Below the pieces are notes generated by a model. The model was given only the letters and a program-made list of their open reading frames with translations. It had not been told where the DNA came from and did not search any database. This document shows, piece after piece, positions 3,011 to 30,767 of a stretch of DNA of 56,847 bases. This DNA is from Bacteroidia bacterium. GTDB lineage: Bacteria; Bacteroidota; Bacteroidia; Flavobacteriales_D; Parvicellaceae. The translations under genes and the position numbers were made by a program. Position 1 is the first letter of the stretch, and each line of letters begins with the position of its first letter. The DNA is taken from positions 1 to 56,847 of the forward strand of contig JBKHVV010000001.1 of the NCBI GenBank assembly GCA_046569885.1, in the 5' to 3' direction.

Positions 3011-3014
3011 GAAA

Positions 3015-4658
3015 TTATTTCGGCATTAATGTATTGTTGTAAAGCTCTTTGTTGGCAAGTGTTTCAAAAGCAGATTTTATAAAAGGGTCTCGCTTAAAAG
3101 AAACCTCCACGCGTCCTTTTTGGTAATAATAACGGGAGGCTATTTCACTTTCTAAAATTTCTATCAATTCGTTTTTATAACGAAGCAAGTCTTCTTCTTT
3201 ATTAGGTTTTATTTTATTGTGTAATGCGGTGAATTCTTCTTCTGAAAAATACTTTTCCTTTTCGGCAACTTCTAAAAGTTTTTTGTAGGTTTCTTCGGTT
3301 GCGGTTTTATACTCAAACTCTTTTGACAAGGCAAATTTCTTGAATTCTATATAATCACCGTCTGAAAAAACGAAGTCTTTAGCAGAGGCAATTTGAGTAT
3401 TTTTCAAACGATATTTTGTTGCGAAATCAAACACCACATCATTGGTTACAACAGAAGCCGTTAGGTTGCTGTAAAAACCAGGGTCAACCTTAATATCGGG
3501 TTCAACGCCTCTTCCATCAATTACCTCGCGCCCATTTTTCGTTTTAAATTTTGATAGCGTTGAATCTGCAAAAATAGTTGCGCGTCCATTTTCTTTGTTT
3601 GAGTAGTCTAATTTTTGAATGCATCTTCCGCTTGGTGTATAATATTTTGCTACGGTAAATTTTATTTTTGTGTTGTAATCCAAATCACGCGTTTGTTGCA
3701 CTAAGCCTTTTCCGTAAGTAGTTTCTCCAACTACAATTCCCCTGTCTAAATCTTGAATAGCACCCGCAACAATTTCGCTTGCCGAAGCAGAAAATTCATC
3801 TACCAAAACCACCAAGGGAATGGTTTCATCAACAGAATTAAATTGTGTTTTGTAAACGAAATTACTTTCTTTTATTCTGCCTTTTGTTTCCACAATTTTT
3901 GTGCCTTTTGGAACAAATAAATTAACAATGTTGACCGCTTCGCCAAGTACACCACCACCATTTCCTCTAAGGTCTAAAACCAACGATTCAATTTGATGTT
4001 TTGACTTTAGTTCAACCAACGCATTTTTTACGGCTTGTGCACAATCGAAAGTAAATGATGTTAGTTTTATGTACCCCACCTTTCCTTCAACAACGCCATA
4101 ATAAGGCACTTCGTTTATTTTAATTTTTTGACGTTCAATTTTTATTTCGCGCATTTTTTCTTCACCGTCACGCTGTATGGTAAGTATTACAAAAGTTCCA
4201 GCCTGACCCTTTAGCGCTTCGCTAACTTCATCGTTGCTCTTGCTGTTGATGTTTACACCATCTACTTTGTAAACTTTATCGCCAGCCATTAGCCCCGCTT
4301 GATGTGCGCCAAATCCCTCATAAACTTCTGTAATTAAAACAAAGTCTTTTCGTTTGCTGATAAGTGTTCCAATGCCACCATATTCGCCTGTAGTCATGAT
4401 TCTAAAATCTTCCATACTCGATTCTGGAATGTAGTTGGTGTAAGGATCTAAAGAGCCCAACATGGCGTCAATACCTGTTTTCATCAACTCACCAGGTTTT
4501 ACCTCATCTACATAATTCAAGTCAATTTCTTTGTAAACAGAACTGAAAATGGAAAGGTTTTTTGAGATTTCAAACAGGTGGTCATTAGTGCGTTTGAAGC
4601 CGTAAATTAAAAGTGCAGAAGCGACTATAATTAGTAATATTTTTAGTTTATTGTTCAT
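3015..4658 (-). CDS. S41 family carboxy-terminal processing peptidase
   Basis: 547 aa with an N-terminal anchor and a PDZ-like segment. Motifs DLRGNGGG, FSASASEIVAGA (catalytic Ser) and TYGKG (catalytic Lys). Confidence 0.85.
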   Translation of the reverse strand: MNNKLKILLIIVASALLIYGFKRTNDHLFEISKNLSIFSSVYKEIDLNYVDEVKPGELMKTGIDAMLGSLDPYTNYIPESSMEDFRIMTTGEYGGIGTLISKRKDFVLITEVYEGFGAHQAGLMAGDKVYKVDGVNINSKSNDEVSEALKGQAGTFVILTIQRDGEEKMREIKIERQKIKINEVPYYGVVEGKVGYIKLTSFTFDCAQAVKNALVELKSKHQIESLVLDLRGNGGGVLGEAVNIVNLFVPKGTKIVETKGRIKESNFVYKTQFNSVDETIPLVVLVDEFSASASEIVAGAIQDLDRGIVVGETTYGKGLVQQTRDLDYNTKIKFTVAKYYTPSGRCIQKLDYSNKENGRATIFADSTLSKFKTKNGREVIDGRGVEPDIKVDPGFYSNLTASVVTNDVVFDFATKYRLKNTQIASAKDFVFSDGDYIEFKKFALSKEFEYKTATEETYKKLLEVAEKEKYFSEEEFTALHNKIKPNKEEDLLRYKNELIEILESEIASRYYYQKGRVEVSFKRDPFIKSAFETLANKELYNNTLMPK

Positions 4659-5013
4659 CGTGAGTAGTATTATTGCTTAAACGAATAAGTAGTTGTTTTA
4701 TTTTTTGGTTGTAATAATCAAACGTCTCAATTTCTTTGCCAACATAAATAAAAAAGATATGAAATTGATTTTTTGAGCCAAAAAGTTCTTGATTTAAACG
4801 AAATGCTTCTCGCATAAGTCGCTTAATTCGGTTACGGTCTACAGCTTTTTTGAATGATTTTTTTTGTACAGAAACCGCCATTTTTGTTTGCTCATCTTTG
4901 GACGACTCATAAATCATCACAACAGCGCCTTCTTTAAGTTTTTTACCAGTAGTTAAAAGAAGTTCAATGTCTTTTTTTGATTTTAATCGTTTATTTTTTC
5001 CGAGTGAAAGCAT
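4648..5013 (-). CDS. rnpA: ribonuclease P protein component
   Basis: 121 aa basic protein with the RnpA RNR motif (AVDRNRIKRLMREAFR). It overlaps the downstream peptidase gene by 11 nt. Confidence 0.85.
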   Translation of the reverse strand: MLSLGKNKRLKSKKDIELLLTTGKKLKEGAVVMIYESSKDEQTKMAVSVQKKSFKKAVDRNRIKRLMREAFRLNQELFGSKNQFHIFFIYVGKEIETFDYYNQKIKQLLIRLSNNTTHDEQ

Positions 5014-5049
5014 TGAAAATAAAAAGGGCGAGTTAAAAATACTCGCCCT
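5014..5049 (-). terminator. rho-independent terminator after hemD
   Basis: 9-bp stem AGGGCGAGT (5025-5033) / ACTCGCCCT (5041-5049) with a 7-nt loop. On the minus strand it is followed by TTTTATTTTC, which runs into the rnpA ATG. Confidence 0.6.
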
Positions 5050-5069
5050 CTAAAGTAATTTCTTTTTAA

Positions 5070-5816
5070 TTATTTTTTCGCGTTTTCTTTAATATATTTT
5101 TCAATCGCCATAGTCATAGAAGGTGTTTCGGGTGTTGGGGCAAATACCTGCACATTTAAGCCCTTATCTTCTGCGGCTTTTCTTACGTTGGCACCAAATG
5201 TAGCTATGCGTGTTTTGTTTTGTTTAAACTTTGGAAAGTTTTTGTATAACGATTCAATTCCAGCAGGTGTAAAAAACACCAACATATCGTAATTTACGTT
5301 TGCTAAATCAGATAAATCTGAACACACGGTGCGATACATAACGGCTTTGGTTACGTTAAAACCTGCATTTTGTAGCATAGTTGGTATAGATTCATTGTGT
5401 GCATCAGAACAAGGAAAAATAAATTTCTCGTTCTTGTGCTTTTTCATGATATCGGTTAAATCTTTAAAGGTTTGTTTTGCAAAAAAGATTTTTCTTTTGC
5501 GATAAATTACGTATTTTTGAAGGTAGTAAGCAACGGCATCTGTGGTACAAAAATACTTCATCGTGTCGGGCACCAAAAAACGCATTTCTTTTGCCATTCT
5601 AAAATAATGGTCAATGGCATTTTTGCTGTTTAGAACAACACCCGTATAGTCTTGAATGTTTATACGAAGCTGCCTAAATTCTTGAGGGTCGAGACCTTCA
5701 ACTTGAATAAATTGCCTAAAATCAATTTTTAATTTCAGTTTTTCGGCTAAATCCAAATAAGGGGATTTTTCGTTTTCCGGCTTGGGTTGCGAAACGAGTA
5801 TGGTCTTAACGCTCAA
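5070..5816 (-). CDS. hemD: uroporphyrinogen-III synthase (HemD family)
   Basis: 248 aa. The N-terminus ILVSQPKPENEKSPYLDLAEK and the overall two-lobe pattern match Bacteroidota HemD-like proteins. Confidence 0.7.
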   Translation of the reverse strand: MSVKTILVSQPKPENEKSPYLDLAEKLKLKIDFRQFIQVEGLDPQEFRQLRINIQDYTGVVLNSKNAIDHYFRMAKEMRFLVPDTMKYFCTTDAVAYYLQKYVIYRKRKIFFAKQTFKDLTDIMKKHKNEKFIFPCSDAHNESIPTMLQNAGFNVTKAVMYRTVCSDLSDLANVNYDMLVFFTPAGIESLYKNFPKFKQNKTRIATFGANVRKAAEDKGLNVQVFAPTPETPSMTMAIEKYIKENAKK

Positions 5817-5857
5817 AGCACTAAAGGTGTTTGGTTTTACAAAATTGCTCTTCTCTT

Positions 5858-6490
5858 TTAAAAGCTGGACATCTGTTTGAACAATACCAAAACAGGAACC
5901 AGTTCAAGGGCACAAAAGTACAAAATATTATAAAACAAAGACGTTCGTCTTAAAAATGATATTCTCATTTGTCGAATCCATTTGTAGATAATAAAAAATC
6001 CGATTAAAAAAATAAAGACCATAAGATATGTTTCCATGCTAATCCACAAAGCAATAGGCAATAAAAAAATTAAAAAAACACCCACCGTTTGTGCTCCCAA
6101 AACTTCAATGTAATAAATCGGTCTCAAGGCATTTTCTCGCACAGAAATAAACTTAGAAAGAAGCAAAATGGTTAAAAGTTTTATTCCTAAAAATGTAAAC
6201 AGTGCCATTGTTAATTGTAAAATATTAAGCAAAATTACACCCTTAAAAATTAAATAAACATTTGAACTTAACGCCAACGCAGATAACACCAAAAGAATAG
6301 TAGATGGATAATTTTTTAAGAAAAATTCTTCTTTGATTTTTTTATTTAGAGTTTTTTCAGAAAAAAAAGCAACAATCAAAGCACCTACAATTTTTGAAGA
6401 AAACTTTATAAGAAGCGCAAAAACAATAAAAAACAACATAAACAAAACAAAAGTTTCTGCTGTTGGTGGTATATGGCGCTCTATCAACAT
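5858..6490 (-). CDS. polytopic membrane protein, DUF4271-like
   Basis: 210 aa with about 6 TM helices. The position directly upstream of hemD is the usual DUF4271 context in Bacteroidota (from memory). Confidence 0.45.
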   Translation of the reverse strand: MLIERHIPPTAETFVLFMLFFIVFALLIKFSSKIVGALIVAFFSEKTLNKKIKEEFFLKNYPSTILLVLSALALSSNVYLIFKGVILLNILQLTMALFTFLGIKLLTILLLSKFISVRENALRPIYYIEVLGAQTVGVFLIFLLPIALWISMETYLMVFIFLIGFFIIYKWIRQMRISFLRRTSLFYNILYFCALELVPVLVLFKQMSSF

Positions 6491-6579
6491 TTATTCAGCA
6501 AAAGTACAATTAGAAACAATTCGTTTGAAAATTAAAGCGATAAAACTACCTTTGCCCACCAAATTACAACACAACTACA

Positions 6580-7752
6580 ATGGACAAATTTCAAGCACAC
6601 GACTACTACCTAATGGATGAAATGCTCACCGAAGAGCAAAAACTTATTCGCCAATCGGTAAGAGACTGGGTAAAACAAACGGTTTCTCCTATTATTGAAG
6701 ATCACTACGAAAAAGCAACATTTCCTGCACATATTTTACCTGGCTTAGGCGAAATTGGTGCTTTTGGTCCGTACATCCCTACAGAGTATGGTGGTGCTGG
6801 CTTAGACCAAATTTCGTATGGTTTAATCATGCAAGAGTTGGAAAGATGCGACTCTGGTTTGCGCTCAACAGCATCAGTACAAAGCTCTTTGGTGATGTAT
6901 CCTATTTACAAATACGGCAACGAAGAACAACGCAAAAAATATTTACCAAAATTAGCCACAGGCGAGTGGTTGGGCTGCTTCGGCCTAACCGAGCCAGACT
7001 TTGGTTCAAACCCTGGTGGAATGATTACCAACTTTAAAGACATGGGCGACCATTATTTGTTGAATGGTGCTAAAATGTGGATTTCAAACGCGCCTCTTTC
7101 TCAAGTAGCGGTGGTGTGGGCTAAAGATGAATCAGGAAGAATTCACGGATTGATTGTAGAAAAAGGAATGGAAGGATTTTCTGCCCCCGAAATGCACGGT
7201 AAACATTCTTTGAGAGCATCTATTACTGGTGAGTTAATTTTTAATAACGTAAAAGTGCCTAAAGAAAATTTATTACCTAACAAAAGCGGATTAGGCGCTC
7301 CACTTGGTTGCTTAGATAGCGCACGTTACGGCATTGCGTGGGGTGCGATTGGTGCAGCCATGGATTGCTACGATTCTGCTTTGCGTTATGCTCAAGAGCG
7401 CATTCAGTTTGACAAACCCATTGCTGCGTTTCAGTTAACACAAAAAAAATTAGCCGAAATGATTACCGAAATTACCAAAGCGCAATTATTAACGCTTCGC
7501 TTAGGACAATTACGCAACGAAGGCAGAGCTACTACCGCACAAATTTCTATGGCTAAACGCAACAACGTAGATATGGCATTGAAAATAGCTCGTGAAGCAC
7601 GTCAAATTCATGGCGCGATGGGAATTACCAACGAATATTCTATTATGCGCCACATGGCAAATTTAGAATCGGTAATTACTTACGAAGGCACACACGATAT
7701 TCACTTATTGATTACGGGTGCTGATGTAACAGGAATTCCTGCGTTTAAGTAA
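6580..7752 (+). CDS. acyl-CoA dehydrogenase (glutaryl-CoA dehydrogenase-like)
   Basis: 390 aa with ACAD N/M/C domains. Motifs GCFGLTEPDFGSNP, WISNA and YEGTHDIH. Confidence 0.85.
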   Translation: MDKFQAHDYYLMDEMLTEEQKLIRQSVRDWVKQTVSPIIEDHYEKATFPAHILPGLGEIGAFGPYIPTEYGGAGLDQISYGLIMQELERCDSGLRSTASVQSSLVMYPIYKYGNEEQRKKYLPKLATGEWLGCFGLTEPDFGSNPGGMITNFKDMGDHYLLNGAKMWISNAPLSQVAVVWAKDESGRIHGLIVEKGMEGFSAPEMHGKHSLRASITGELIFNNVKVPKENLLPNKSGLGAPLGCLDSARYGIAWGAIGAAMDCYDSALRYAQERIQFDKPIAAFQLTQKKLAEMITEITKAQLLTLRLGQLRNEGRATTAQISMAKRNNVDMALKIAREARQIHGAMGITNEYSIMRHMANLESVITYEGTHDIHLLITGADVTGIPAFK

Positions 7753-7835
7753 TTTAGTAAATTAAGTAGTCTAAAAAAGATTGATTAATGACTGATTAAT
7801 TTTAGATTATAGCTAATATATCCATTTTCAATAAA

Positions 7836-8489
7836 TTAATGTCCGTGCTCTACACGCTTAATGCTGCAACCAATGTTTTTAGTAGTTGAAGGGTCAATTT
7901 TTTTGCCTTCCTTTAATTGTGTCATAGCGGTTTTTAGATAAGGTTCTTTTACTTCTTTGCTGTTGTTTACATTGTCATCAATAGCACCTTTGTAAACCAA
8001 CTTTAGGTTAGCATCGAACAAATACACATGTGGTGTGGTGCGTGCACCAAAAGCATCGGCAAGTTTGTGTTCTACATCAATAACATAAGAACTTTTTAAA
8101 CCTTTTTCTTTGGCACGGTTTTGCATATCTGCAAAAGAATCGCCTTTTTCGCGCTTCGCTTCGTTAGAATTTACCAACACCATACCTATTCCATTTTGTG
8201 TAGCGTTATCAAACACTTCGTTGTAACGCCCTTCCCATCCTTCACTGTCGCCCATACCACCAATTACAAACGGACAGGTGTTGCACGAAAAAATAACCAA
8301 CAACCCTTTTTCTTTTTTGAGGTCGTTCAATGACAATTCTTTTCCAGAAACGTCTTTCATTTTTGAATCACTCATCGGAGCGCTATCGCCAACTTCAAGA
8401 CTTTTTGGGTCATGATTGATGGTGCTTAATTTAAAAGCGCCAAATACTGTAATACCTACAATGGCGAATAATATGATTGATTTTTGCAT
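7836..8489 (-). CDS. thioredoxin-fold (PRX_like/TlpA-like) exported protein
   Basis: 217 aa with a signal/anchor and a redox motif, FSCNTCPF (CxxC). It is divergent from the Cys-rich metal module. Confidence 0.7.
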   Translation of the reverse strand: MQKSIILFAIVGITVFGAFKLSTINHDPKSLEVGDSAPMSDSKMKDVSGKELSLNDLKKEKGLLVIFSCNTCPFVIGGMGDSEGWEGRYNEVFDNATQNGIGMVLVNSNEAKREKGDSFADMQNRAKEKGLKSSYVIDVEHKLADAFGARTTPHVYLFDANLKLVYKGAIDDNVNNSKEVKEPYLKTAMTQLKEGKKIDPSTTKNIGCSIKRVEHGH

Positions 8490-9473: not shown

Positions 9474-11750
9474 ATGAAACGGATAATATTGTTAATGGTG
9501 GTTGGGCTGTTTAGCTCAACCACATTTTCGCAGAATATACTTACAGGACGTGTGTTTGAGCAACTACCAAAAACAGATACACTAACGCCACTTCAGGGTG
9601 TTTCTGTGTACTGGTTAAACACACAAGTTGGAACTACTACCGATATTTCGGGAACGTTCAATATTAAACGTTTAACCTTCAATGGCATAGACACAGCACA
9701 CATGTTAGTAGTGCGTTTTATAAGCTACGAGCAAGACACCATTCACGTGAATGATTTTTCCAAACCACTAAATATAGTATTAAAACAAGGTGAATTTTTA
9801 TCAGAAGTTGTGATAGAATATCGAGAAGGTTCTACCGCTTTTTTAACACTTGAACCACGCAACACACAAGTGCTTACTCAAAAAGAATTGCGCAAAGCGG
9901 CATGTTGCAACTTGGCAGAAAGTTTTGAGACCAATCCTTCGGTAGATGCTTCGTTTACTGATGCGGTTACAGGCACTAAGCAAATTCAAATGCTAGGTTT
10001 GAGCGGTAAGTACACGCAAATTATGCAAGAGAACATTCCGAGCATTCGTGGGTTGAGCACCATTTATGGTTTGGAATTTGTTCCTGGTCCTTGGATAAAT
10101 TCTATATACCTTTCAAAAGGTGCTGGCTCTGTAGTGAATGGCTTTGAAAGCATCACAGGACAAATAAATATTGATATGAAAAAACCAGGCAATGCCGAAA
10201 AATTTCATTTCAATGTGTATGGCAATCAATCGTCACGAATAGAAATGAACATGGTATTTGATAAAGCCGTTAGCAAATATTGGGAAACTACTTTGCTACT
10301 TCACGGCAAAAATCAACGTGTAATTTTTGACCATAATCATGACCATTTTTTAGACAATCCACTGCAAACGGTTTTAGCCGCGAGCAATCAATGGCACTAT
10401 AATAATTTTGATAAAGGTATTCAATCAGAAATGGGTATTGATGCTGTGTATTACGATTCCAAATCAGGGCAAATAGATTATTTTTCTGAAGGACCACAGT
10501 TGCCGCCAGATTTGTATTATGGTGTAGAAAACATCATTCAACGTGTAAATGGTTTTGTAAAATTAGGTTATTTGTTTCCTGATGAAGACTACAAAAGCAT
10601 CGGTTCGCAATGGTCGGCTTCGTGGCACAAACAAGAGGCGTTATTTGGTTTAACAAATTATCAAGGCGAACATATTAATGCGCAAGCCAACATTATTTTT
10701 CAAGATGAATTAGACGAACATCATACGCACACTTACAAAACAGGCGTTAGCTTTTTGTACGATGACTACACCGAATATTTTTCGCAGTTAGATTTAAGCC
10801 GACAAGAAATTGTGCCCGGTGCATTTTTAGAATACAACTTCAGCCACCAAGAAGTATTTAATTTAATTGCAGGAATTCGCAGTGATTACAACTCCTTGTA
10901 CGAAGATGTGTTTGTAACACCACGTTTGCATGCGCGGTACAGTTTTACAGAAAAAACATCTGTAAAATTTGGCGCAGGAAGAGGGCGTAGAACACCCAAC
11001 GTAATTGCCGAAAACATTGGCTTGTTAGCGTCATCGCGCAGATGGAATTTTGTTACGCAACCTGTTTACAACATGCAAGGCATTCTTCCGGAAGTAGCGT
11101 GGAATGTGGGCTTGAACCTTACTAAAAATTTTCGTTTAGATTATCGCGATGGTATAATTACTATTGACCTTTATCGTACCGATTTTGAAAATCAATTGGT
11201 GATGGATGTAGATGCTAATCCTCAGCAAGTAAATGTGTATAATTTATTTGGAAAATCCTACTCGAACAGCGCGCAAGCAGAAATCAATTACGAACTGATA
11301 AAACGCTTGGATGTGCGTTTGGCATACCGTTGGCTGGATGTAAAAACCGACCAGCTTTTAGGTGAAATGATTCGACCGTTAGTGCCAACCCATCGTGCAT
11401 TTGCCAATGTAGCTTATGCTACCAAAAAGAAAGATGAAAAGTTGTGGGAGTTTGATATCACCGCTTTGTGGACAGGAAAACAGCGCATACCAATGACCAA
11501 TCAAAATCCAGAAAGTTTGCAACTGCCCGAATATGCTGATGCATTTTGGTTATTTAACGCACAAATTACGCGCATTTTTTCTGAGAAATTTAATGTTTAC
11601 CTTGGTGTAGAAAATGCGTTAAATTACACTCAAAGTAATCCTATTTTGGATGCACAAAACCCATTCGGAACTTATTTTGACAGTTCAATGATTTGGGCGC
11701 CTATTTTTGGACGAATGGCTTACTTTGGTTTGCGTTATACCGTTAAATAA
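9474..11750 (+). CDS. TonB-dependent receptor with N-terminal carboxypeptidase-regulatory-like domain
   Basis: 758 aa with a signal peptide and a CarbopepD_reg-like N-terminus. The plug carries AACCNLAESFETNPSVD...QIQMLGLSGKY. The C-terminal barrel ends in an aromatic-rich strand, YFGLRYTVK. Confidence 0.85.
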   Translation: MKRIILLMVVGLFSSTTFSQNILTGRVFEQLPKTDTLTPLQGVSVYWLNTQVGTTTDISGTFNIKRLTFNGIDTAHMLVVRFISYEQDTIHVNDFSKPLNIVLKQGEFLSEVVIEYREGSTAFLTLEPRNTQVLTQKELRKAACCNLAESFETNPSVDASFTDAVTGTKQIQMLGLSGKYTQIMQENIPSIRGLSTIYGLEFVPGPWINSIYLSKGAGSVVNGFESITGQINIDMKKPGNAEKFHFNVYGNQSSRIEMNMVFDKAVSKYWETTLLLHGKNQRVIFDHNHDHFLDNPLQTVLAASNQWHYNNFDKGIQSEMGIDAVYYDSKSGQIDYFSEGPQLPPDLYYGVENIIQRVNGFVKLGYLFPDEDYKSIGSQWSASWHKQEALFGLTNYQGEHINAQANIIFQDELDEHHTHTYKTGVSFLYDDYTEYFSQLDLSRQEIVPGAFLEYNFSHQEVFNLIAGIRSDYNSLYEDVFVTPRLHARYSFTEKTSVKFGAGRGRRTPNVIAENIGLLASSRRWNFVTQPVYNMQGILPEVAWNVGLNLTKNFRLDYRDGIITIDLYRTDFENQLVMDVDANPQQVNVYNLFGKSYSNSAQAEINYELIKRLDVRLAYRWLDVKTDQLLGEMIRPLVPTHRAFANVAYATKKKDEKLWEFDITALWTGKQRIPMTNQNPESLQLPEYADAFWLFNAQITRIFSEKFNVYLGVENALNYTQSNPILDAQNPFGTYFDSSMIWAPIFGRMAYFGLRYTVK

Positions 11751-15660: not shown

Positions 15661-15759
15661 GCACAAAATCCATTTGGGACATATTTTGACAGTTCGATGA
15701 TTTGGGCGCCTATTTTTGGACGCATGGTGTACTTTGGTTTGCGCTATACCATCAAGTAA
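15661..15759 (+). pseudogene. orphan 3'-end remnant of a TonB-dependent receptor gene
   Basis: 99 nt match 11652-11750 (the end of the intact TBDR) at 87/99 positions. It translates to AQNPFGTYFDSSMIWAPIFGRMVYFGLRYTIK* and has an in-frame TGA two codons upstream. Confidence 0.85.
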
Positions 15760-26215: not shown

Positions 26216-28003
26216 ATGGCAGGAACTCACGAACATCACGCTCACCACCACCATCACGAGAGCTTCATTTCAAAGTACATTTTTAGCCAAGATCATAAAA
26301 TGATTTCCAAACAATTTCTTGTTACAGCCATTGTAATGGGAGTTGTGGCTATGATGATGTCTGTATTTTTTCGTTTACAATTAGGTTGGCCCGAGCAACC
26401 TTTTGAAATTCTAAATATGTTTTTGGGCGATAAATGGGCTCCAGAAGGCATCTTAGACAGAAACATGTACTTGGCTTTAGTGACCATTCATGGTACCATC
26501 ATGGTGTTTTTTCTTTTAACAGGTGGTTTGTCGGGTACTTTTGCCAACTTACTTATTCCGTTGCAAATTGGTGCCCGTGATATGGCATCGGGCTTTTTAA
26601 ATATGCTTTCTTATTGGCTCTTTTTGCTATCAAGCATCATAATGATATTGTCCTTATTTGTTGAAGGAGGACCTGCATCTGCTGGTTGGACAGTTTATCC
26701 TCCTCTAAGTGCGCTTCCACAAGCAATGCCTGGTTCTGGCTTAGGAATGACCCTTTGGTTGGTTAGTATGGCAATATTCATAGCATCATCGCTTTTAGGA
26801 GGTATTAACTATGTGGTTACTATTTTAAATTTAAGAACCAAAGGCATGCACATGACAAGAATGCCTTTGACCGTTTGGGCGATATTTGTTACTGCTATCT
26901 TGGGTATTTTATCTTTCCCTGTTTTACTTTCGTGCGCTGTACTTTTAATTATGGACAGAAGCATGGGCACGAGCTTCTATTTATCAGATATTTTTATAGG
27001 AGGCGAAGCATTGGACTTTACAGGTGGTAGCCCAATTTTGTTTCAACACTTATTCTGGTTCTTAGGTCACCCTGAGGTATATATTGTGTTATTACCAGCA
27101 TTAGGTTTAACCTCTGAAATTATTTCTACCAACTCACGTAAGCCAATTTTTGGATACAGAGCGATGATTGGCTCTATTTTAGCCATTGGGTTCTTGTCAT
27201 TTATCGTGTGGGGTCACCACATGTTTATAACAGGTATGAACCCATTTTTAGGCGGTGTGTTTGTATTTACAACCTTGTTGATTGCCATCCCATCGGCTGT
27301 AAAAGTATTTAACTACTTAACCACCCTTTGGAAAGGTAACATCGTTTACACTCCGGCTATGATGTTTTCAATTGGTTTAGTATCAACCTTCATTACTGGA
27401 GGTGTAACTGGTATTATTTTAGCAGACTCTGCGCTTGACATCAATGTACACGACACATACTTTGTGGTGGGACACTTCCATATTGTAATGGGTATGAGTG
27501 CTGTGTTTGGTATGTTTGCAGGCGTTTATCATTGGTTTCCAAAAATGTATGGCAAAATGATGAACCGCAAATGGGGTTATGTTCATTTTTGGCTAACCAT
27601 TATTTGTGGCTATGGTGTATTTTTTCCAATGCACTTTATTGGTTTAGCAGGCGCACCAAGACGCTACTACGATTATTCCGTTTTTGAGTTTGACATGTTT
27701 CAGTACAACTTAATAATGGACTTAAATGTTTTGATTAGCATTTTTGCCATTATAGGGTCTGCTGCGCAGCTTATATTTATCTTTAACTTCTTTTATAGTG
27801 TGTTTAGAGGACAAAAATCACCACAAAATCCATGGAAATCGAACACCTTAGAGTGGACGGCTCCTGTAGAACACATGCACGGCAACTGGCCTGGTGAAAT
27901 TCCTGAAGTACACCGTTGGCCTTACGATTACAGTAAGCCTGGAGCCGAAGAAGATTTTATCCCTCAAAATATTCCCTTAAAAGCAGGTGAAGAAGAGCAC
28001 TAA
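26216..28003 (+). CDS. ctaD: cytochrome c oxidase subunit I
   Basis: 595 aa. Motifs GHPEVYIVLLP, WGHHMF and VGHFHIVM. N-terminal His run HEHHAHHHHHE. Confidence 0.95.
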   Translation: MAGTHEHHAHHHHHESFISKYIFSQDHKMISKQFLVTAIVMGVVAMMMSVFFRLQLGWPEQPFEILNMFLGDKWAPEGILDRNMYLALVTIHGTIMVFFLLTGGLSGTFANLLIPLQIGARDMASGFLNMLSYWLFLLSSIIMILSLFVEGGPASAGWTVYPPLSALPQAMPGSGLGMTLWLVSMAIFIASSLLGGINYVVTILNLRTKGMHMTRMPLTVWAIFVTAILGILSFPVLLSCAVLLIMDRSMGTSFYLSDIFIGGEALDFTGGSPILFQHLFWFLGHPEVYIVLLPALGLTSEIISTNSRKPIFGYRAMIGSILAIGFLSFIVWGHHMFITGMNPFLGGVFVFTTLLIAIPSAVKVFNYLTTLWKGNIVYTPAMMFSIGLVSTFITGGVTGIILADSALDINVHDTYFVVGHFHIVMGMSAVFGMFAGVYHWFPKMYGKMMNRKWGYVHFWLTIICGYGVFFPMHFIGLAGAPRRYYDYSVFEFDMFQYNLIMDLNVLISIFAIIGSAAQLIFIFNFFYSVFRGQKSPQNPWKSNTLEWTAPVEHMHGNWPGEIPEVHRWPYDYSKPGAEEDFIPQNIPLKAGEEEH

Positions 28004-28024
28004 ACTTAATTAAGAATTTCTTAT

Positions 28025-28087
28025 GTCATCCTGAACTTGTTTCAGTATCTGTTGCAAGATTAGATGCTGAAATAAAATCAGCATAAC
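28025..28087. repeat. imperfect inverted-repeat element (GTCATYCTGAA family) between convergent coxI and folA
   Basis: Arm 28025-28050 (GTCATCCTGAACTTGTTTCAGTATCT) pairs with the reverse complement of arm 28062-28087 at 20/26 positions. Each arm also holds its own small hairpin (CTGAA/TTCAG and ATGCTGA/TCAGCAT). It probably acts as a bidirectional terminator. Confidence 0.55.
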
Positions 28088-28088
28088 A

Positions 28089-28595
28089 TCACTCCTTAGA
28101 ATACGATTTTATCACAAAATCCGCTTCGTGTTTTTTGTCTTTGTGGTGGTGTTGTTCAGAAACCATTTTCCATTGTGAGAAATCAATCTTTGGGAAAAAA
28201 GCATCGCCATCGTATGCTTTATCAATGTGCGTTAAGTACAATTTGGTAGCTAAATTTTTGCGCAAGGTTTCTGCATAAATTTGCGCACCACCAATAATGA
28301 ATACTTCTTCTTGCTGCGCTTTTTTAGCTTGCTCTAGTGCTTCTTCAATAGAGTTTACAACAATACAATTAGGCGCTTTAAAATCGCTTTGGCGTGTAAC
28401 AATCACATTGGTTCTATTAGGCAATGGGCGGTATTTTTCGGGAATAGAATCGTAGTTTTTTCTGCCCATTATCACCCAATGGTTTTGCGTAGTGGCTTTA
28501 AAAAATGCCATGTCCTTAGGGAAATGCCACATCAAATCGTTGTCTTTTCCGATGACGTTGTTTTTTGAAATAGCAGCTATAATAGAAATGTTCAT
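28089..28595 (-). CDS. folA: dihydrofolate reductase
   Basis: 168 aa. Motifs IAAISKNNVIGKDNDLMWHFPKDMAFFK and IIGGAQIY. Confidence 0.9.
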   Translation of the reverse strand: MNISIIAAISKNNVIGKDNDLMWHFPKDMAFFKATTQNHWVIMGRKNYDSIPEKYRPLPNRTNVIVTRQSDFKAPNCIVVNSIEEALEQAKKAQQEEVFIIGGAQIYAETLRKNLATKLYLTHIDKAYDGDAFFPKIDFSQWKMVSEQHHHKDKKHEADFVIKSYSKE

Positions 28596-28614
28596 TAGTT
28601 CACTGGTTCATTAG
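28590..28614. repeat. left arm of the 25-nt inverted repeat bracketing the four-helix-bundle ORF
   Basis: GTTCATTAGTTCACTGGTTCATTAG. This equals the reverse complement of 29009-29033 at 23/25 positions. It contains the 9-mer GTTCATTAG twice and covers the folA start codon (28593-28595). Confidence 0.9.
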
Positions 28615-28624
28615 GGTTTTTGGG

Positions 28625-28999
28625 TTATTCTTTTTTTGTTTTGCCAATGTATTTCATATAGGCATTTAGCTTTATGTGGGTTAATTCCAATTTTGAAAAT
28701 AAATTTTCATAAACATCCTGCGCAATTAGATTTCTATTTTTTGCTTTTAATAACCACGTTTTCGTTTCTAAAATAGAGCCCCGAGCATAAAAGCAAAACT
28801 GACGATTTTCTTTGTAAGAAAATCTTCCGTAACCTTCAGCAATATTTGCAGAGATAGAATCAGCAGAGCGCACAACCTGTTTGCCAATAGTATCTTTTTC
28901 AAAATGACTCCACACAGAAACTAAATTCCAAATCTCATCTGAAAGCTCATTCGCTAGAAGATAAACTTCTAAAGTATCTATGGTTTTTACATCCGTCAT
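28625..28999 (-). CDS. four-helix-bundle protein (23S rRNA intervening-sequence protein / Avd-like family)
   Basis: 124 aa. Family-typical LEVYLLANELSDEIWNLV...TIGKQVVRSADSISANIAEGYGR...FCFYARGSILETKTWL. Confidence 0.8.
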   Translation of the reverse strand: MTDVKTIDTLEVYLLANELSDEIWNLVSVWSHFEKDTIGKQVVRSADSISANIAEGYGRFSYKENRQFCFYARGSILETKTWLLKAKNRNLIAQDVYENLFSKLELTHIKLNAYMKYIGKTKKE

Positions 29000-29008
29000 T
29001 CCTATTTA

Positions 29009-29033
29009 CTAATGAACCAATCAACTAATGAAC
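29009..29033. repeat. right arm of the 25-nt inverted repeat
   Basis: CTAATGAACCAATCAACTAATGAAC. Its last base is the first base of the thyA stop codon complement (29033-29035). Confidence 0.9.
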
Positions 29034-29857
29034 TAAAGTGAAACTTCTGCTTTAATGTGTGGATGTGGGTCGTAGTTCAATAGCTCAAAGTCTTCGTATT
29101 TAAAATTGAAAATGCTTTTCACATTAGGATTTATTTTCATGGTTGGCAATGCTCTCGGTTCGCGTGCGAGCTGTTCTTTTGCTTGCTCAATGTGGTTGAG
29201 GTATAAATGCACATCACCAAAGGTGTGGATGAAATCACCGGGTTTTAAGTCGCACACTTGCGCTACCATCATCGTTAATAAAGCGTATGATGCGATGTTA
29301 AACGGCACACCTAAAAACGTGTCTGCACTGCGCTGATACAGCTGACAGCTTAGTTTTCCTTCTTGCACATAAAACTGAAAAAAGGCATGGCAAGGTGGTA
29401 AAGCTGCTTTTCCGTTGGCTACATTTTCTGCAAAACTTTTGCTTGTATCTGGCATTACGCTTGGGTTCCAAGCCGACACGATAATTCTTCTGCTATTCGG
29501 GTTGTGCTTAATATCGTGAATGGCTTGTGCAATTTGGTCGATGCCTTCGCTGTTCCAGTTGCGCCATTGGTGGCCATACACAGGACCTAAATCACCATTT
29601 TCATTTGCCCAACCATCCCAAATTTTTACGTTATGTTCTTTAAGATAATTGATGTTGGTATCGCCATTCAAAAACCACAACAACTCATGAATGATGGATT
29701 TTAAGTGCAATTTTTTGGTCGTAAGCATAGGAAATCCTTCCGATAAATCAAAACGCATTTGATAGCCAAAGCAGCTAATGGTGCCTGTTCCGGTGCGGTC
29801 GCCTTTGGTTACACCGTTGTCTAAAATGTGTTGTAATAAATCGTGGTATTGTTTCAT
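29033..29857 (-). CDS. thyA: thymidylate synthase
   Basis: 274 aa. Motifs DRTGTGT, active-site LPPCH and the C-terminal pattern. Confidence 0.95.
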
Positions 29858-29864
29858 GTTGAGC

Positions 29865-29896
29865 GTGCTAAAGTGTTAGCGTGTTAATGTGCTAAC
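29865..29896. repeat. four tandem degenerate 8-mers (GTGYTARN) in the thyA leader
   Basis: GTGCTAAA GTGTTAGC GTGTTAAT GTGCTAAC, lying between the -7 box at 29907-29914 and the thyA ATG. Confidence 0.7.
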
Positions 29897-29906
29897 GTTT
29901 CAAGTT

Positions 29907-29914
29907 CAAAGTTA
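29907..29914 (-). promoter_or_regulatory. candidate -7 box (TAACTTTG on the minus strand) for thyA
   Basis: Exact TAnnTTTG match 50 nt upstream of the thyA start. Confidence 0.4.
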
Positions 29915-29987
29915 AGGCTGATTGATGATTAGTGATGGATGATTTTTGAATATTTATTCACATATTATCGCACACAAAAGATTAAAT

Positions 29988-30767
29988 TTAATCGTGAATA
30001 CCTGCTTCAAACAAGAGTTTACTGAGGTTAAGGATGATAATTTTTTTTCCATCAAATTCGATAAGTTTTTCTCTGTTTAATATCGCCAACGTTCTTATTA
30101 CGGTTTCGGTTGTTGTTCCTGCAATATCAGCAATTTCAGATCGTGTCAGAGCAGCGCTAATGGTGGTTGTGCCCTCGTCATAATCAAAAGTGTTTTTAAG
30201 CAAAACCAACGTTTCGCAAATGCGCTCTCTGACGGTTTTTTGGGCAACGTCAATAAGGTGCTGTTCGGCATTTTTTAAATCTCTAGTTAAAAGCTGAATG
30301 GCATCCCACGCAAGGCTAAAGTTTTTACGTAATAATTCCATAAAGTGCTCTTTAGAAAGTAAGCAAACGCAACATTCTTCCATTGCCACTGCGGTGGCGT
30401 GGTAGGGATCGTTACTCAACAATGCTCGATATCCTAAAACCTCTCCTTCTTTTGCAAATCTAATAATTTGATTTTTTCCGTTTTCTCCAAGCTTTGATAG
30501 TTTTACTTTGCCCCTGTAAATGCAAAAAAGCCCATTAGCATGATTGCCTTCATAAAAAATGACTTGTCCTTTTTTATAAAAATTACTTTTCTTGCTTTTG
30601 CCAATATATGCTTTTTCATTTTTTGTTAAAGAACAAAATAAATTACTAGTGTTTGTGCAGTGTTCACAAGGCGGAATATCATAACACAATCTTTTAATTT
30701 GCATACATTTTATTCTTGGTTGTTCAGATTCTGTTAAATGATGGAAAAAACAACTGTATTCATACAA
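29988..30767 (-). CDS. Crp/Fnr family transcriptional regulator with N-terminal Cys cluster (FNR-like)
   Basis: cNMP-binding-like barrel (YKKGQVIFYEG...LFCIYRGKVKL) and a C-terminal HTH (RSEIADIAGTTTETVIRTL). N-terminal CYDIPPCEHCTNTSNLFC. The likely true start is ATG 30704 (MQIKRLC...). Confidence 0.8.
   Translation of the reverse strand: MYEYSCFFHHLTESEQPRIKCMQIKRLCYDIPPCEHCTNTSNLFCSLTKNEKAYIGKSKKSNFYKKGQVIFYEGNHANGLFCIYRGKVKLSKLGENGKNQIIRFAKEGEVLGYRALLSNDPYHATAVAMEECCVCLLSKEHFMELLRKNFSLAWDAIQLLTRDLKNAEQHLIDVAQKTVRERICETLVLLKNTFDYDEGTTTISAALTRSEIADIAGTTTETVIRTLAILNREKLIEFDGKKIIILNLSKLLFEAGIHD

What the first reader, a model, noticed from the sequence alone, without database searches (positions are those of the whole stretch)
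28590..29033. Four-helix-bundle (23S-rRNA-IVS-protein family) ORF inserted exactly between thyA and folA, bracketed by 25-nt inverted repeats that include the folA start codon
In gene orientation (minus strand) the locus reads as follows:
- thyA...TAG
- GTTCATTAG-TTGATTG-GTTCATTAG (the first G is the final G of the thyA TAG stop)
- 10 nt
- the 375-nt ORF
- 10 nt
- CTAATGAAC-CAGTGAA-CTAATGAAC
- ATT... (folA)

The two 25-mers are reverse complements at 23/25 positions. Each is built from two copies of the same 9-mer. The distal arm supplies the folA ATG-AAC. It also creates a 3-codon mini-ORF, ATG-AAC-CAG-TGA (28611-28600), with an identical start context.

This is the architecture of ORF-bearing intervening sequences in 23S rRNA, where a long stem loops out the ORF and is cut by RNase III. 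Here it sits inside a thyA-folA mRNA. If the stem forms, it would sequester the folA initiation region and provide a processing site that uncouples thyA and folA expression. Alternatively, the unit could be a TIR-flanked selfish cassette that has captured the folA start.
Basis: partly seen in the sequence, partly recalled or inferred. Interest (0 to 1): 0.7.

Follow-up and report, generated by a model that had tools for sequence, protein, structure and literature searches.

The report
Repeat-flanked four-helix-bundle cassette in thyA-folA
A small, well-conserved gene sits exactly between two vitamin/DNA-precursor genes, bracketed by mirror-image runs of 8-letter repeats that can zip together in the RNA, and the same layout turns out to surround relatives of this gene in many operons of several bacterial phyla, apparently without having been described as such.

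Summary
On the minus strand, thyA (29857-29033), a 124-aa PF05635/TIGR02436 four-helix-bundle (4HB) gene (28999-28625) and folA (28595-28089) are contiguous. The 4HB gene is bracketed by 25-nt arms (29033-29009 and 28614-28590), complementary at 23/25 positions, each made of three tandem 8-mers. The first arm starts at the thyA stop codon. The second contains the folA ATG.

It is not a one-off. In 156 homologous loci, 88% have inverted arrays of 7- or 8-nt tandem repeats around the 4HB gene. The repeat unit differs between protein lineages but matches on both sides of each gene. Both neighbouring genes are co-oriented in 87% of loci. The arrays typically abut the upstream stop and the downstream start. 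In Xanthomonas the crystallised homologue XCC0516 sits between accB and accC inside published "GGGAATC" repeats.

Relatives of the window organism have thyA and folA overlapping with no cassette. The 4HB ORF is under strong purifying selection.

Best reading: an IVS-like, operon-embedded cassette. Its arms form a long-range RNA helix that loops out the ORF, hides the folA start, and is opened by thyA-terminating ribosomes or RNase III. This mechanism is inferred. Two tests for fine-scale RNA pairing selection were negative.

The parts
29033..29857 (-). thyA (thymidylate synthase, 274 aa); its TAG stop (29035-29033) ends on the first base of the 5' arm
   Evidence: PF00303, E 7e-125; NF002497
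29009..29033 (-). 5' arm: three tandem 8-nt units, GTTCATTA-GTTGATTG-GTTCATTA-G (G+T-rich)
29000..29008 (-). 9-nt leader (TAAATAGGA) between the 5' arm and the 4HB ATG
28625..28999 (-). Four-helix-bundle protein gene (124 aa; PF05635 / TIGR02436). The model is a 4-helix bundle like the XCC0516, BT_0352 and bAvd pentamers. dN/dS is 0.01-0.11.
28615..28624 (-). 10-nt spacer (CCCAAAAACC) between the 4HB stop and the 3' arm
28590..28614 (-). 3' arm: C-TAATGAAC-CAGTGAAC-TAATGAAC, complementary to the 5' arm at 23/25 positions. The last unit contains the folA ATG-AAC. Every unit carries ATG or GTG plus TGA, which creates the 3-codon mini-ORF at 28611-28600.
28089..28595 (-). folA (dihydrofolate reductase, 168 aa). 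The start codon (28595-28593) is predicted to be fully base-paired in the long-range helix.
29858..29944 (-). Orphan tandem arrays upstream of thyA: about five 8-mers (ACGYTARC) abutting the thyA ATG, and about four 7-mers (ATCATCM). They are probably remnants of a neighbouring array pair or cassette seen in relatives.

Best explanation
**What it is (shown).** The 444-nt unit at 28590-29033 is one copy of a widespread class of operon-embedded cassettes. Each consists of a PF05635 four-helix-bundle (4HB) gene bounded by two inverted arrays of 7- or 8-nt tandem repeats. The cassette lies between two co-directional host genes. The outer ends of the arrays touch the upstream stop codon and the downstream start codon. 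In this window it splits a thyA-folA pair that overlaps (ATGA) in a cassette-less relative. The ORF encodes a protein under strong purifying selection.

**How it most likely works (inferred).**
1. The cassette has no promoter of its own and is transcribed within the thyA-folA mRNA.
2. The two arrays pair into a helix of about 25 bp. This loops out the 4HB ORF, whose own AUG stays accessible.
3. The helix places the thyA UAG directly opposite the folA AUG and buries that AUG.
4. folA can then be translated only when the helix is opened. A ribosome terminating at the thyA stop must melt the first ~12 bp, which would recreate thyA-folA translational coupling across the insertion. Alternatively, RNase III could cut the helix, as in the 23S rRNA intervening sequences that carry the same gene family.
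5. Tandem repeats make the helix register-tolerant and easy to resize by slippage.

On this reading the arrangement lets the cassette ride on a host operon with little polar damage. The function of the 4HB protein itself remains unknown. By homology with bAvd, it is probably a pentameric nucleic-acid-binding ring.
For: **Anatomy and chance.**

**Folding.**
- The long-range stem is in both the MFE and the centroid structure, z = -3.3.
- The arm duplex is -33.1 kcal/mol against -7.5 +/- 2.6 for shuffled arms. All 24 pairs have probability >=0.96. P(unpaired) is 0.00 for the folA AUG and 0.8-0.9 for the 4HB AUG.
- The stem is kept in all four close relatives. The arms differ at 3/50 to 5/50 positions (read), while synonymous divergence (dS) of the ORF is 0.26-0.96.

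**Generality.**
- 88% of 156 loci have an inverted match with score >=24. Controls give 7% (direct orientation), 1% (shuffled) and 1% (displaced).
- 107 of 156 loci have tandem arrays on both sides. Periods are 8/8 in 64 loci and 7/7 in 33.
- The unit co-varies between arms across 19 protein clusters: identity 0.89 within a locus against 0.63 between clusters, p = 2e-9.
- The same layout is found in Xanthomonas between accB and accC.

**Dependence on the host transcript and on translation.**
- The upstream neighbour is co-oriented in 122/128 loci and the downstream neighbour in 113/124.
- Both neighbours are co-oriented in 100/115 loci, against 22/42 gene triples in the window.
- The 5' array starts a median 5.5 nt after the upstream stop. 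The downstream ATG lies a median 3 nt inside the 3' array.
- The leader before the 4HB ATG is longer than the gap after its stop (41 vs 12 nt, p = 4e-11).
- No promoter-like or terminator-like site lies on the gene strand inside the cassette.

**Ancestral coupling.** thyA and folA overlap as ATGA in L088/L089.

**Functional ORF.** dN/dS is 0.01-0.11.

**Precedent.**
- The Coxiella IVS has a 28-bp stem cut by RNase III (PMC4990558).
- Cyanobacterial STRR hairpins between hupS and hupL have been proposed to give transcript stability or translational coupling (PMC2670836).
Against: - **No wobble bias.** Mismatches in the arms show no preference for G.U over A.C on the sense strand (158 vs 165).
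- **No in-register co-evolution.** Arms of one locus are no more complementary to each other than to arms of other loci of the same unit class (median score 41 vs 40, p = 0.15). Fine-scale selection on individual RNA base pairs is therefore not seen. What is conserved is the lineage-specific unit and the inverted layout.
- **No compensatory changes.** The four close relatives show none in the stem.
- **Shared sequence features.** Unrelated unit classes share an ATT(A/G)G-like core, and the 5' array is G+T-rich in 130/135 loci. Pure complementarity does not explain either feature. Both hint at sequence-specific recognition.
- **No experimental data.** There is no transcript, RNase III or translation data for this organism.
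- **Weak promoter evidence.** The absence of promoter consensus matches is weak evidence in Bacteroidota.
Confidence: 0.5

Rival explanations
1. Cognate protein-repeat system. The arrays are binding sites for the 4HB pentamer itself, one 7-8-nt unit per subunit around the ring, on RNA or DNA. The cassette would then be a self-recognising unit used for autoregulation, protection of the transcript, or propagation of the element. Helix formation would be secondary or would compete with binding. This is not exclusive of the RNA-helix model.
For: - The unit class tracks the protein cluster.
- Different unit classes coexist in one genome, each with its own protein: L001 has two cassettes, and L057/L071 and L031/L081 are pairs from single genomes. 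This argues against a single host factor.
- Arrays typically have 3-6 units, and the closest solved structures are homopentamers: 2GSC, 2RLD and 4DWL, each with chains A-E.
- The bAvd pentamer binds a defined RNA stem-loop in the DGR ribonucleoprotein (bioRxiv 10.1101/2023.10.23.563531).
- Unit classes share an ATT(A/G)G core and the 5' array is consistently G+T-rich.
- The lack of G.U bias and of in-register co-evolution fits recognition of units rather than of base pairs.
Against: - Co-inheritance of the ORF and its arms as one unit would give the same protein-unit correlation without any binding.
- ORF-less array pairs are common: groES-groEL in Xanthomonas, L005 and L006. Arrays can therefore persist without an enclosed 4HB gene.
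- No binding data exist for any stand-alone 4HB protein.
Confidence: 0.25
2. DNA-level mobile element. The inverted arrays are terminal inverted repeats or hairpin-forming ends used for transposition or recombination by a machinery encoded elsewhere. Alternatively, the cassette inserts into loops of pre-existing hairpin arrays. The RNA consequences would be incidental, and today's copy would be a vertically inherited passenger.
For: - There is presence/absence polymorphism at identical junctions. thyA|folA is filled in the window and L001-L005 but empty in L086-L091. The transporter|thyA junction is filled in L001 only.
- About 45 different genomic contexts were seen.
- The protein tree shows site switching: CBS-nadK copies are nested within the PBP-uvrC clade, and dnaJ-ABC copies are up to 85% identical to thyA-folA copies.
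- The mismatch spectrum is strand-symmetric.
- The Coxiella paper calls IVSs selfish or parasitic elements and cites evidence of horizontal transfer of Leptospira IVSs (PMC4990558).
Against: - No transposase, integrase or nuclease domain is present in or next to the cassette.
- No obvious target-site duplication flanks the arms.
- There is no second copy in the 56.8-kb window.
- Orientation is strongly biased to the host operon's direction, and the arms sit exactly at stop and start codons. This implies selection at the transcript or translation level.
- The ORF is under purifying selection as strong as that on housekeeping genes.
- Copies at a given site mostly follow taxonomy, so movement is rare.
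Confidence: 0.2
3. Non-functional by-product. The arrays are slippage-generated simple repeats that accumulate in intergenic spacers, and their inverted arrangement around a hypothetical gene has no consequence.
For: - Array copy number varies between close relatives: 3 vs 4 units and up to 18 units in L073.
- Heptamer repeats are known to be over-represented in bacterial genomes and have been ascribed to polymerase slippage (PMC4692102).
Against: - Slippage gives direct repeats, not matched inverted arrays. 88% of loci have inverted matches against 1-7% in controls.
- The unit co-varies between arms across 19 lineages.
- The arms evolve several-fold more slowly than synonymous sites.
- The arrays sit precisely at stop and start codons.
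Confidence: 0.04
4. Invertible switch. The arms are recombination sites for an invertase that flips the 4HB segment to control folA expression.
For: Inverted repeats flank a short segment.
Against: - No recombinase gene is nearby.
- All five close relatives have the same orientation.
- The 4HB gene is co-oriented with each neighbour in 91-95% of loci across the family.
Confidence: 0.01

Closest known systems
ORF-bearing intervening sequences (IVS) of 23S rRNA (Coxiella burnetii helix 45; Leptospira; PMC4990558)
   Same: - The encoded protein family is the same (S23p / PF05635).
- The size is the same (444 nt).
- Terminal complementary sequences form a long stem: 28 bp in Coxiella, 25 bp here.
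- The element is transcribed as part of a host RNA, and the stem restores continuity of the host RNA across the insertion.
   Different: - This element lies between two protein-coding genes, not in an rRNA helix.
- The arms are arrays of tandem 8-mers that supply or overlap a stop and a start codon.
- The ORF here is under strong purifying selection, whereas the Coxiella paper reports that S23p is apparently not synthesised in vivo and is undergoing reductive evolution.
- RNase III processing has not been shown here.
Short tandemly repeated repetitive (STRR) heptamers of heterocystous cyanobacteria, and the GGGAATC / GGGGAYT heptamer repeats of Xanthomonas and Nostoc (PMC2670836; PMC4692102)
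   Same: - The tandem units are 7-8 nt long.
- They are intergenic, lie between co-directional genes, and sit close to the upstream gene's end.
- They often occur as convergent pairs able to form hairpins (70 pairs in X. campestris).
- They have been proposed to act in transcript stability or translational coupling.
- One published Xanthomonas repeat (#15) is the 5' array of the 4HB gene XCC0516.
   Different: - Those papers treat the repeats as stand-alone elements (G-quadruplex formers, fingerprinting targets) and do not connect them with 4HB genes.
- The units here are AT-rich and cannot form G-quadruplexes.
- The host here is Bacteroidota.
- The equivalence of the unit sequences with the classical STRR1-3 heptamers rests on my memory of Mazel et al. 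1990 and was not verified.
Avd, accessory protein of diversity-generating retroelements (4DWL, 8UB7)
   Same: - It has the same four-helix-bundle fold (TM 0.71-0.84).
- It is pentameric and binds a defined RNA stem-loop.
- In DGR RNA the template is flanked by complementary segments.
   Different: - No reverse transcriptase-sized gene lies between 27.0 and 31.0 kb, and no template or variable repeat was noticed there; neither was searched for systematically.
- Sequence identity to Avd is only 4-10%.
REP/RAYT (REPIN) systems
   Same: A single gene is flanked by inverted copies of a short repeat. The same repeat also occurs, without the gene, as hairpin-forming pairs in many intergenic regions.
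   Different: - RAYT is an HUH (Y1) transposase, whereas the 4HB protein has no recognisable nuclease domain.
- The repeats here are tandem arrays of 7-8-mers, not palindromic REP units.
- This comparison is from general knowledge.
Translational coupling through long-range mRNA helices (e.g. RNA phage MS2 coat-replicase)
   Same: A downstream start codon is sequestered by pairing with a distant upstream segment and is exposed only when ribosomes translate that segment.
   Different: Here the helix brackets a whole inserted gene and is built from repeats. The coupling is a prediction, not a measurement. This comparison is from general knowledge.

Membership tests
PF05635 / TIGR02436 four-helix-bundle ('23S rRNA IVS protein', S23p) family | Significant match to the family profile above the curated cut-off | tested here: met
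   PF05635: 92.9 bits (cut-off 33.8). TIGR02436: 91.8 bits (cut-off 24)..
PF05635 / TIGR02436 four-helix-bundle ('23S rRNA IVS protein', S23p) family | Four-helix-bundle fold like XCC0516 / BT_0352 | tested here: met
   The AF2 model has pLDDT 92 and four helices. Foldseek TM is 0.86-0.92 to 2GSC and 0.73-0.87 to 2RLD..
PF05635 / TIGR02436 four-helix-bundle ('23S rRNA IVS protein', S23p) family | Homopentameric toroid | not testable with these tools
   Only a monomer was modelled. The solved relatives each have chains A-E.
23S rRNA intervening sequence (IVS) | Located within a 23S rRNA gene (helix 9, 25 or 45) | tested here: not met
   The element lies between thyA and folA. No rRNA or any other Rfam family is found in the window.
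23S rRNA intervening sequence (IVS) | Bordered by complementary sequences that form a stable stem enclosing the element | tested here: met
   25-bp stem, -33 kcal/mol, pair probabilities >=0.96.
23S rRNA intervening sequence (IVS) | Excised from the host RNA by RNase III | not testable with these tools
STRR-type short tandem repeat arrays | Tandem repeats with a 7-nt (here 7-8-nt) unit in intergenic regions of operons | tested here: met
   Period 8, 3.6 copies in the window. Across 156 loci, 129 have an array on the 5' side, 127 on the 3' side and 107 on both sides.
STRR-type short tandem repeat arrays | Occurrence in heterocystous cyanobacteria with the canonical STRR1-3 units | tested here: not met
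   The relatives are Bacteroidota. Units of the same form as STRR2 and STRR3 occur in some loci, but the canonical sequences are recalled from memory.
TIR transposon / MITE | Target-site duplication flanking the terminal inverted repeats | tested here: not met
   The flanks are ...TCACTTTA|G-arm and arm-C|ATTTCTAT. There is no direct repeat of 5 nt or more.
TIR transposon / MITE | Transposase in the element, or multiple near-identical copies in the genome | tested here: inconclusive
   No transposase is present and there is no second copy in the 56.8-kb window. The rest of the genome is not available.
Diversity-generating retroelement (Avd-containing) | Adjacent reverse transcriptase with template and variable repeats | tested here: inconclusive
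   The only ORFs of 100 aa or more overlapping 27.0-31.0 kb are a 595-aa membrane protein (cytochrome oxidase subunit I by my reading), folA, the 4HB gene, thyA, a Crp/Fnr-like regulator and a MoeA-like protein; the last three identifications are my own reading and were not run through a family search. No RT family search and no TR/VR repeat search was run.
Invertible DNA switch | Both orientations present; site-specific recombinase nearby | tested here: not met
   The orientation is the same in all five close relatives, and the 4HB gene is co-oriented with each neighbour in 91-95% of loci. No recombinase is nearby.

The most novel reading that the evidence does not exclude
PF05635 four-helix-bundle genes and their inverted arrays of 7-8-nt tandem repeats form a distinct, phylum-spanning kind of operon-embedded genetic element. 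It would be an mRNA counterpart of rRNA intervening sequences. In it, the pentameric 4HB protein specifically recognises its own repeat units. The arrays act as portable stop/helix/start adaptors that let the element sit between translationally coupled genes without breaking them. This would also explain the origin of the long-unexplained STRR heptamers of cyanobacteria and the GGGAATC repeats of Xanthomonas, as ORF-less or ORF-bearing forms of the same element.
Probability: 0.3. Interest if true: 0.85.

Novelty: new variant of a known kind. Interest (0 to 1): 0.72.

Why it matters
**Unknown function of a very large family.** PF05635 proteins are very abundant: each of two searches here scored about 2,000-8,000 candidates and nearly all were significant. 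Outside DGRs they have no known function.

**Unexplained repeats.** Short tandem heptamer or octamer arrays (STRR, GGGAATC) have gone without an accepted function (PMC4692102, PMC2670836).

**What the link offers.**
- It gives both problems a testable framework, provided that the 4HB genes really do sit inside inverted arrays that dock onto the stop and start codons of neighbouring genes.
- It suggests a way for an insertion to preserve translational coupling in phyla that lack Shine-Dalgarno-driven initiation.
- It reinterprets reported 'associations' of these genes with CRISPR-Cas and other operons (PMC3936711) as promiscuous intra-operon insertion.
- It supplies cultivable models (Pedobacter, Mucilaginibacter, Xanthomonas) for experiments.

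**For this window specifically.** folA (a trimethoprim target) may be expressed only through a structured, possibly processed, junction.

Tried and rejected
1. **Rfam.** No family matched at E<=1 in 28000-30000, and none reached gathering threshold in the whole window.
2. **PADLOC and PHROGs.** No hit for the 4HB protein, so no known defence or phage annotation.
3. **Paralogues and extra repeat copies in the window.** None found.
4. **G.U versus A.C mismatch asymmetry**, as a test for sense-strand RNA selection. Negative: 158 vs 165.
5. **Within-locus versus cross-locus arm complementarity** within the GTTCAYT class. No difference.
6. **Compensatory changes among the four close relatives.** None in the stem, only conservation.
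7. **Promoter and terminator scans** (sigma-70 type and the Bacteroidetes TTTG...TAnnTTTG motif). Nothing on the gene strand inside the cassette; this is weak evidence.
8. **A clean empty site to define insertion boundaries or a target duplication.**
   - L088 and L090 are too diverged.
   - L086 carries a different 80-nt insert.
   - No obvious duplication flanks the arms in the window.
9. **Literature searches** for a description of 4HB genes flanked by tandem arrays. Nothing was found in the held library. Subscription-only papers (Mazel 1990; Ralph & McClelland 1993; Lin 2006; Vioque 1997) could not be read.
10. **G-quadruplex reading** (Rehm 2015). Rejected for this locus because the units contain no G-tracts.
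11. **Direct test of the cyanobacterial STRR link.** Not possible, because the caps on protein and genome searches were exhausted.
Full report
**1. The observation**

Read on the minus strand, the locus is:
- thyA 29857-29033 (PF00303, E 7e-125)
- a 124-aa ORF 28999-28625 (PF05635 '23S rRNA-intervening sequence protein', E 1.8e-26; TIGR02436 'four helix bundle protein', E 2.9e-26)
- folA 28595-28089 (PF00186, E 1e-59)

The ORF is bracketed by arms at 29033-29009 and 28614-28590. Each is 25 nt and they are 92% complementary. The last G of the thyA TAG is the first base of the 5' arm. The folA ATG-AAC is the end of the 3' arm.

The 9-mer CTAATGAAC occurs four times in 56.8 kb, only in the arms. 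The expectation is 0.54, and no shuffle out of 100 reaches four.

Two small corrections apply. The 5' spacer is 9 nt, not 10. Each arm is really three tandem 8-nt units (Tandem Repeats Finder: period 8, 3.6 copies). The 3-codon mini-ORF exists but follows automatically from the unit, which carries ATG or GTG followed by TGA.

**2. Folding**

- The 501-nt RNA (28560-29060, minus strand) folds with the long-range stem in both the MFE and the centroid structure (z = -3.3).
- The arm duplex alone is -33.1 kcal/mol, against -7.5 +/- 2.6 for shuffled arms.
- In context, all 24 pairs have probability >=0.96.
- The folA AUG has P(unpaired) = 0.00. The AUG of the enclosed ORF has 0.8-0.9.

**3. Close relatives**

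*Cassette-bearing relatives.* Four metagenomic relatives have the same thyA-4HB-folA arrangement, with 4HB 91-99% identical and DHFR 88-89% identical. The arms are conserved, and two relatives have one extra unit on the 3' side. RNAalifold keeps the stem in all four. It shows conservation, not compensatory change.

*Rates.* The arms differ at 3/50 to 5/50 positions (read), while synonymous divergence (dS) of the ORF is 0.26-0.96. The ORF has dN/dS of 0.01-0.11. That is comparable to thyA (0.02-0.03) and lower than folA (0.09-0.16). It therefore encodes a functional protein.

*Cassette-less relatives.*

| Loci | DHFR identity | thyA-folA junction |
|---|---|---|
| L088/L089 | 70% | overlap as ATGA |
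| L090/L091 | 61% | 9 nt apart |
| L086/L087 | 79% | unrelated 80-nt spacer with two GC-rich hairpins |

In L086/L087 folA still begins CAATGAAC, which is exactly one repeat unit.

*A second junction.* At the neighbouring transporter-thyA junction, L001 carries a second 4HB gene with different units (GGTAATDG). L005 has an ORF-less pair of inverted arrays (TTGATTG.../...CAATCAA) at that junction. The window itself keeps orphan arrays upstream of thyA.

**4. Generality**

I fetched 80 genome loci (59-70% identical 4HB proteins; Mucilaginibacter, Pedobacter, other Bacteroidota). I also fetched 80 metagenome loci (40-66% identical).

*Inverted arrays are the rule.*
- Of 156 loci with at least 100 nt on both flanks, 88% have an ungapped inverted match with score >=24 between the flanks.
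- Controls give 7% for direct orientation, 1% for shuffled flanks and 1% for a displaced flank.
- Tandem Repeats Finder finds arrays on both sides in 107 loci. The periods are 8/8 in 64 loci and 7/7 in 33.

*The unit differs between protein lineages.* Examples are GTTCATTR, GTCATTR, GTTAATYNG, GATATTGA, GAAATTRG, GGCACTCG, GTTGACR, GTATTAG and GGTGATTG.

*Within a locus the two sides match.* With one representative for each of 19 protein clusters, unit identity is 0.89 within a locus and 0.63 between clusters (p = 2e-9).

*Different unit classes coexist in one genome*, each with its own protein.

**5. Context rules**

| Feature | Result |
|---|---|
| Upstream neighbour co-oriented | 122/128 |
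| Downstream neighbour co-oriented | 113/124 |
| Both neighbours co-oriented | 100/115 (window gene triples: 22/42) |
| 5' array start relative to upstream stop | median 5.5 nt after; 60% within -5..+10 |
| Downstream ATG relative to 3' array end | median 3 nt inside; 61% within -12..+10 |
| Gap from 5' array to 4HB ATG | median 41 nt |
| Gap from 4HB stop to 3' array | median 12 nt (p = 4e-11 vs the 41-nt gap) |
| 5' array G+T-rich | 130/135 |

One caveat applies to the downstream-ATG figure. The arrays carry ATGs in several frames, so my ORF caller is biased towards starts inside them. For DHFR and UvrC, however, my own comparison of the N-termini with homologues (from memory for E. coli, not a tool result) supports these starts. 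An 'MN' N-terminus (ATG-AAC) recurs in independent contexts.

*Contexts.* About 45 were seen. They include 40 thyA-folA loci, 22 PBP-uvrC loci, and smaller groups at dnaJ-ABC, HAAO-ACMSD and CBS-nadK (neighbour names are my reading of the representative sequences). In Xanthomonas the context is accB-accC. A cmr3-cmr2 case was published for Pleurocapsa (PMC3936711). Several of these contexts are pairs of subunits or of consecutive enzymes.

*Protein tree.* It mostly follows site and taxon. CBS-nadK copies, however, nest within the PBP-uvrC clade. dnaJ-ABC copies are up to 85% identical to thyA-folA copies. So cassettes move rarely and are then inherited vertically.

**6. Link to published repeats**

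The crystallised family member XCC0516 (2GSC) lies between accB and accC. It has four GGGAATC-type heptamers starting 5 nt after the accB stop. Four complementary units end at the accC ATG.

The 5' array is repeat #15 in the supplement of Rehm et al. 2015 (PMC4692102). That paper describes 186 such repeats and 70 convergent pairs in X. campestris as G-quadruplex formers. It does not mention the 4HB family. Its repeats #16 and #17 are an ORF-less convergent pair between groES and groEL.

Cyanobacterial STRR repeats are described as 7-bp repeats that form hairpins between hupS and hupL. They are thought possibly to act in transcript stability or translational coupling (PMC2670836). From memory, the classical STRR units (CCCCART, TTKGTCA, CAACAGT) have the same form as units seen here. 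I could not verify this.

No paper in the held library links 4HB genes to flanking tandem arrays.

**7. The protein**

The AlphaFold2 model (pLDDT 92) is a four-helix bundle. Its best structural matches are listed below; each entry has five chains, A-E.

| Entry | Protein | TM-score |
|---|---|---|
| 2GSC | XCC0516 | 0.86-0.92 |
| 2RLD | BT_0352 | 0.73-0.87 |
| 4DWL, 8UB7 | DGR accessory protein bAvd | 0.71-0.84 |

bAvd binds a defined RNA stem-loop in the DGR ribonucleoprotein. The window protein has no PADLOC or PHROGs match.

**8. Mechanism**

*Shown:*
- the anatomy;
- its non-random nature;
- its generality;
- the co-variation of units between arms;
- the docking of arrays onto stop and start codons;
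- the co-orientation with the host operon;
- the purifying selection on the ORF;
- the existence of empty and ORF-less sites.

*Inferred:* The cassette is co-transcribed with thyA and folA; no promoter-like or terminator-like site lies on the gene strand inside it (weak evidence). The arms pair. The helix puts the thyA UAG opposite the folA AUG and buries the AUG.

A ribosome terminating at UAG occupies roughly the next 12 nt (general knowledge of the ribosome footprint). It must therefore melt the base of the helix and free the folA AUG, while the remaining ~13 bp keep the two ends together. This would rebuild the ancestral ATGA-type coupling across a 437-nt insertion. RNase III cleavage, as in the Coxiella IVS (28-bp stem cut mid-stem; PMC4990558), is the alternative or additional way to open the helix.

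*Evidence against a purely RNA-pairing view:*
- There is no G.U over A.C bias (158 vs 165).
- There is no in-register co-evolution.
- Unit classes share an ATT(A/G)G core.
- The 5' array is consistently G+T-rich.

These points keep alive the rival that the pentameric 4HB protein recognises the units. They also keep alive the rival that the arrays are DNA-level ends of a rarely mobile element. The three views are not mutually exclusive.

**9. Verdict**

It is not a member of the 23S rRNA IVS class, because it is not in rRNA. It looks like the mRNA-embedded counterpart of that class, fused with the STRR-type repeat phenomenon. I rate it a new variant of a known kind with high interest. The specific mechanism has moderate confidence (0.5).

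Noticed in passing
window 29858-29899 and 29919-29944 (minus strand, upstream of thyA ATG 29857): Two orphan tandem arrays with no inverted partner in the window: about five 8-mers (ACGYTARC) abutting the thyA start, and about four 7-mers (ATCATCM/ATCAATC). In relative L005 the 7-mer array has an inverted partner (an ORF-less hairpin). In L001 a second 4HB gene occupies that junction.
   Followed up: partly
window 11676-11709 and 15685-15718 (+): Two near-identical 34-nt strings matching the Bacteroidetes promoter pattern (TTTGACAGTTC[A/G]ATGATTTGGGCGCCTATTTTTG), 4 kb apart. This suggests a duplicated regulatory region or repeated gene.
   Followed up: no
window 1-56847: No Rfam family (tRNA, rRNA, riboswitch, etc.) reaches gathering threshold anywhere in the 56.8-kb window.
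   Followed up: no
L086 336-415 and L087 264-343: A cassette-less relative has an unrelated 80-nt thyA-folA spacer with two GC-rich hairpins (ccccTCC...ccccgaagggGAGG; ccctctcttggagaggg). Its folA still begins with one repeat unit (CAATGAAC), possibly a scar of a lost cassette.
   Followed up: partly
L006 1130-1370 and 1730-1910: Serial or nested ORF-less hairpin arrays (GTTCATT...AATGAAC pairs with 50-90-nt loops) lie on both sides of the 4HB gene between thyA and folA. This shows that arrays can multiply independently of the ORF.
   Followed up: partly
L073, upstream flank of the 4HB gene: Expansion to about 18 tandem GGTCATT units on the 5' side against about 5 on the 3' side. Array length is highly dynamic.
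   Followed up: no
L173 1425-1460 and 1840-1872; L174 equivalent: In Xanthomonas, the crystallised 4HB family member (XCC0516) sits between accB and accC inside inverted GGGAATC-type heptamer arrays. In the published table the 5' array overlaps the annotated start codon of XCC0516 by 17 nt, so that start annotation may be too far upstream.
   Followed up: partly
window 26216-28003 (+): The 595-aa membrane-protein ORF (cytochrome c oxidase subunit I by my reading; not run through a family search) has a histidine-rich N-terminus (MAGTHEHHAHHHHHE).
   Followed up: no
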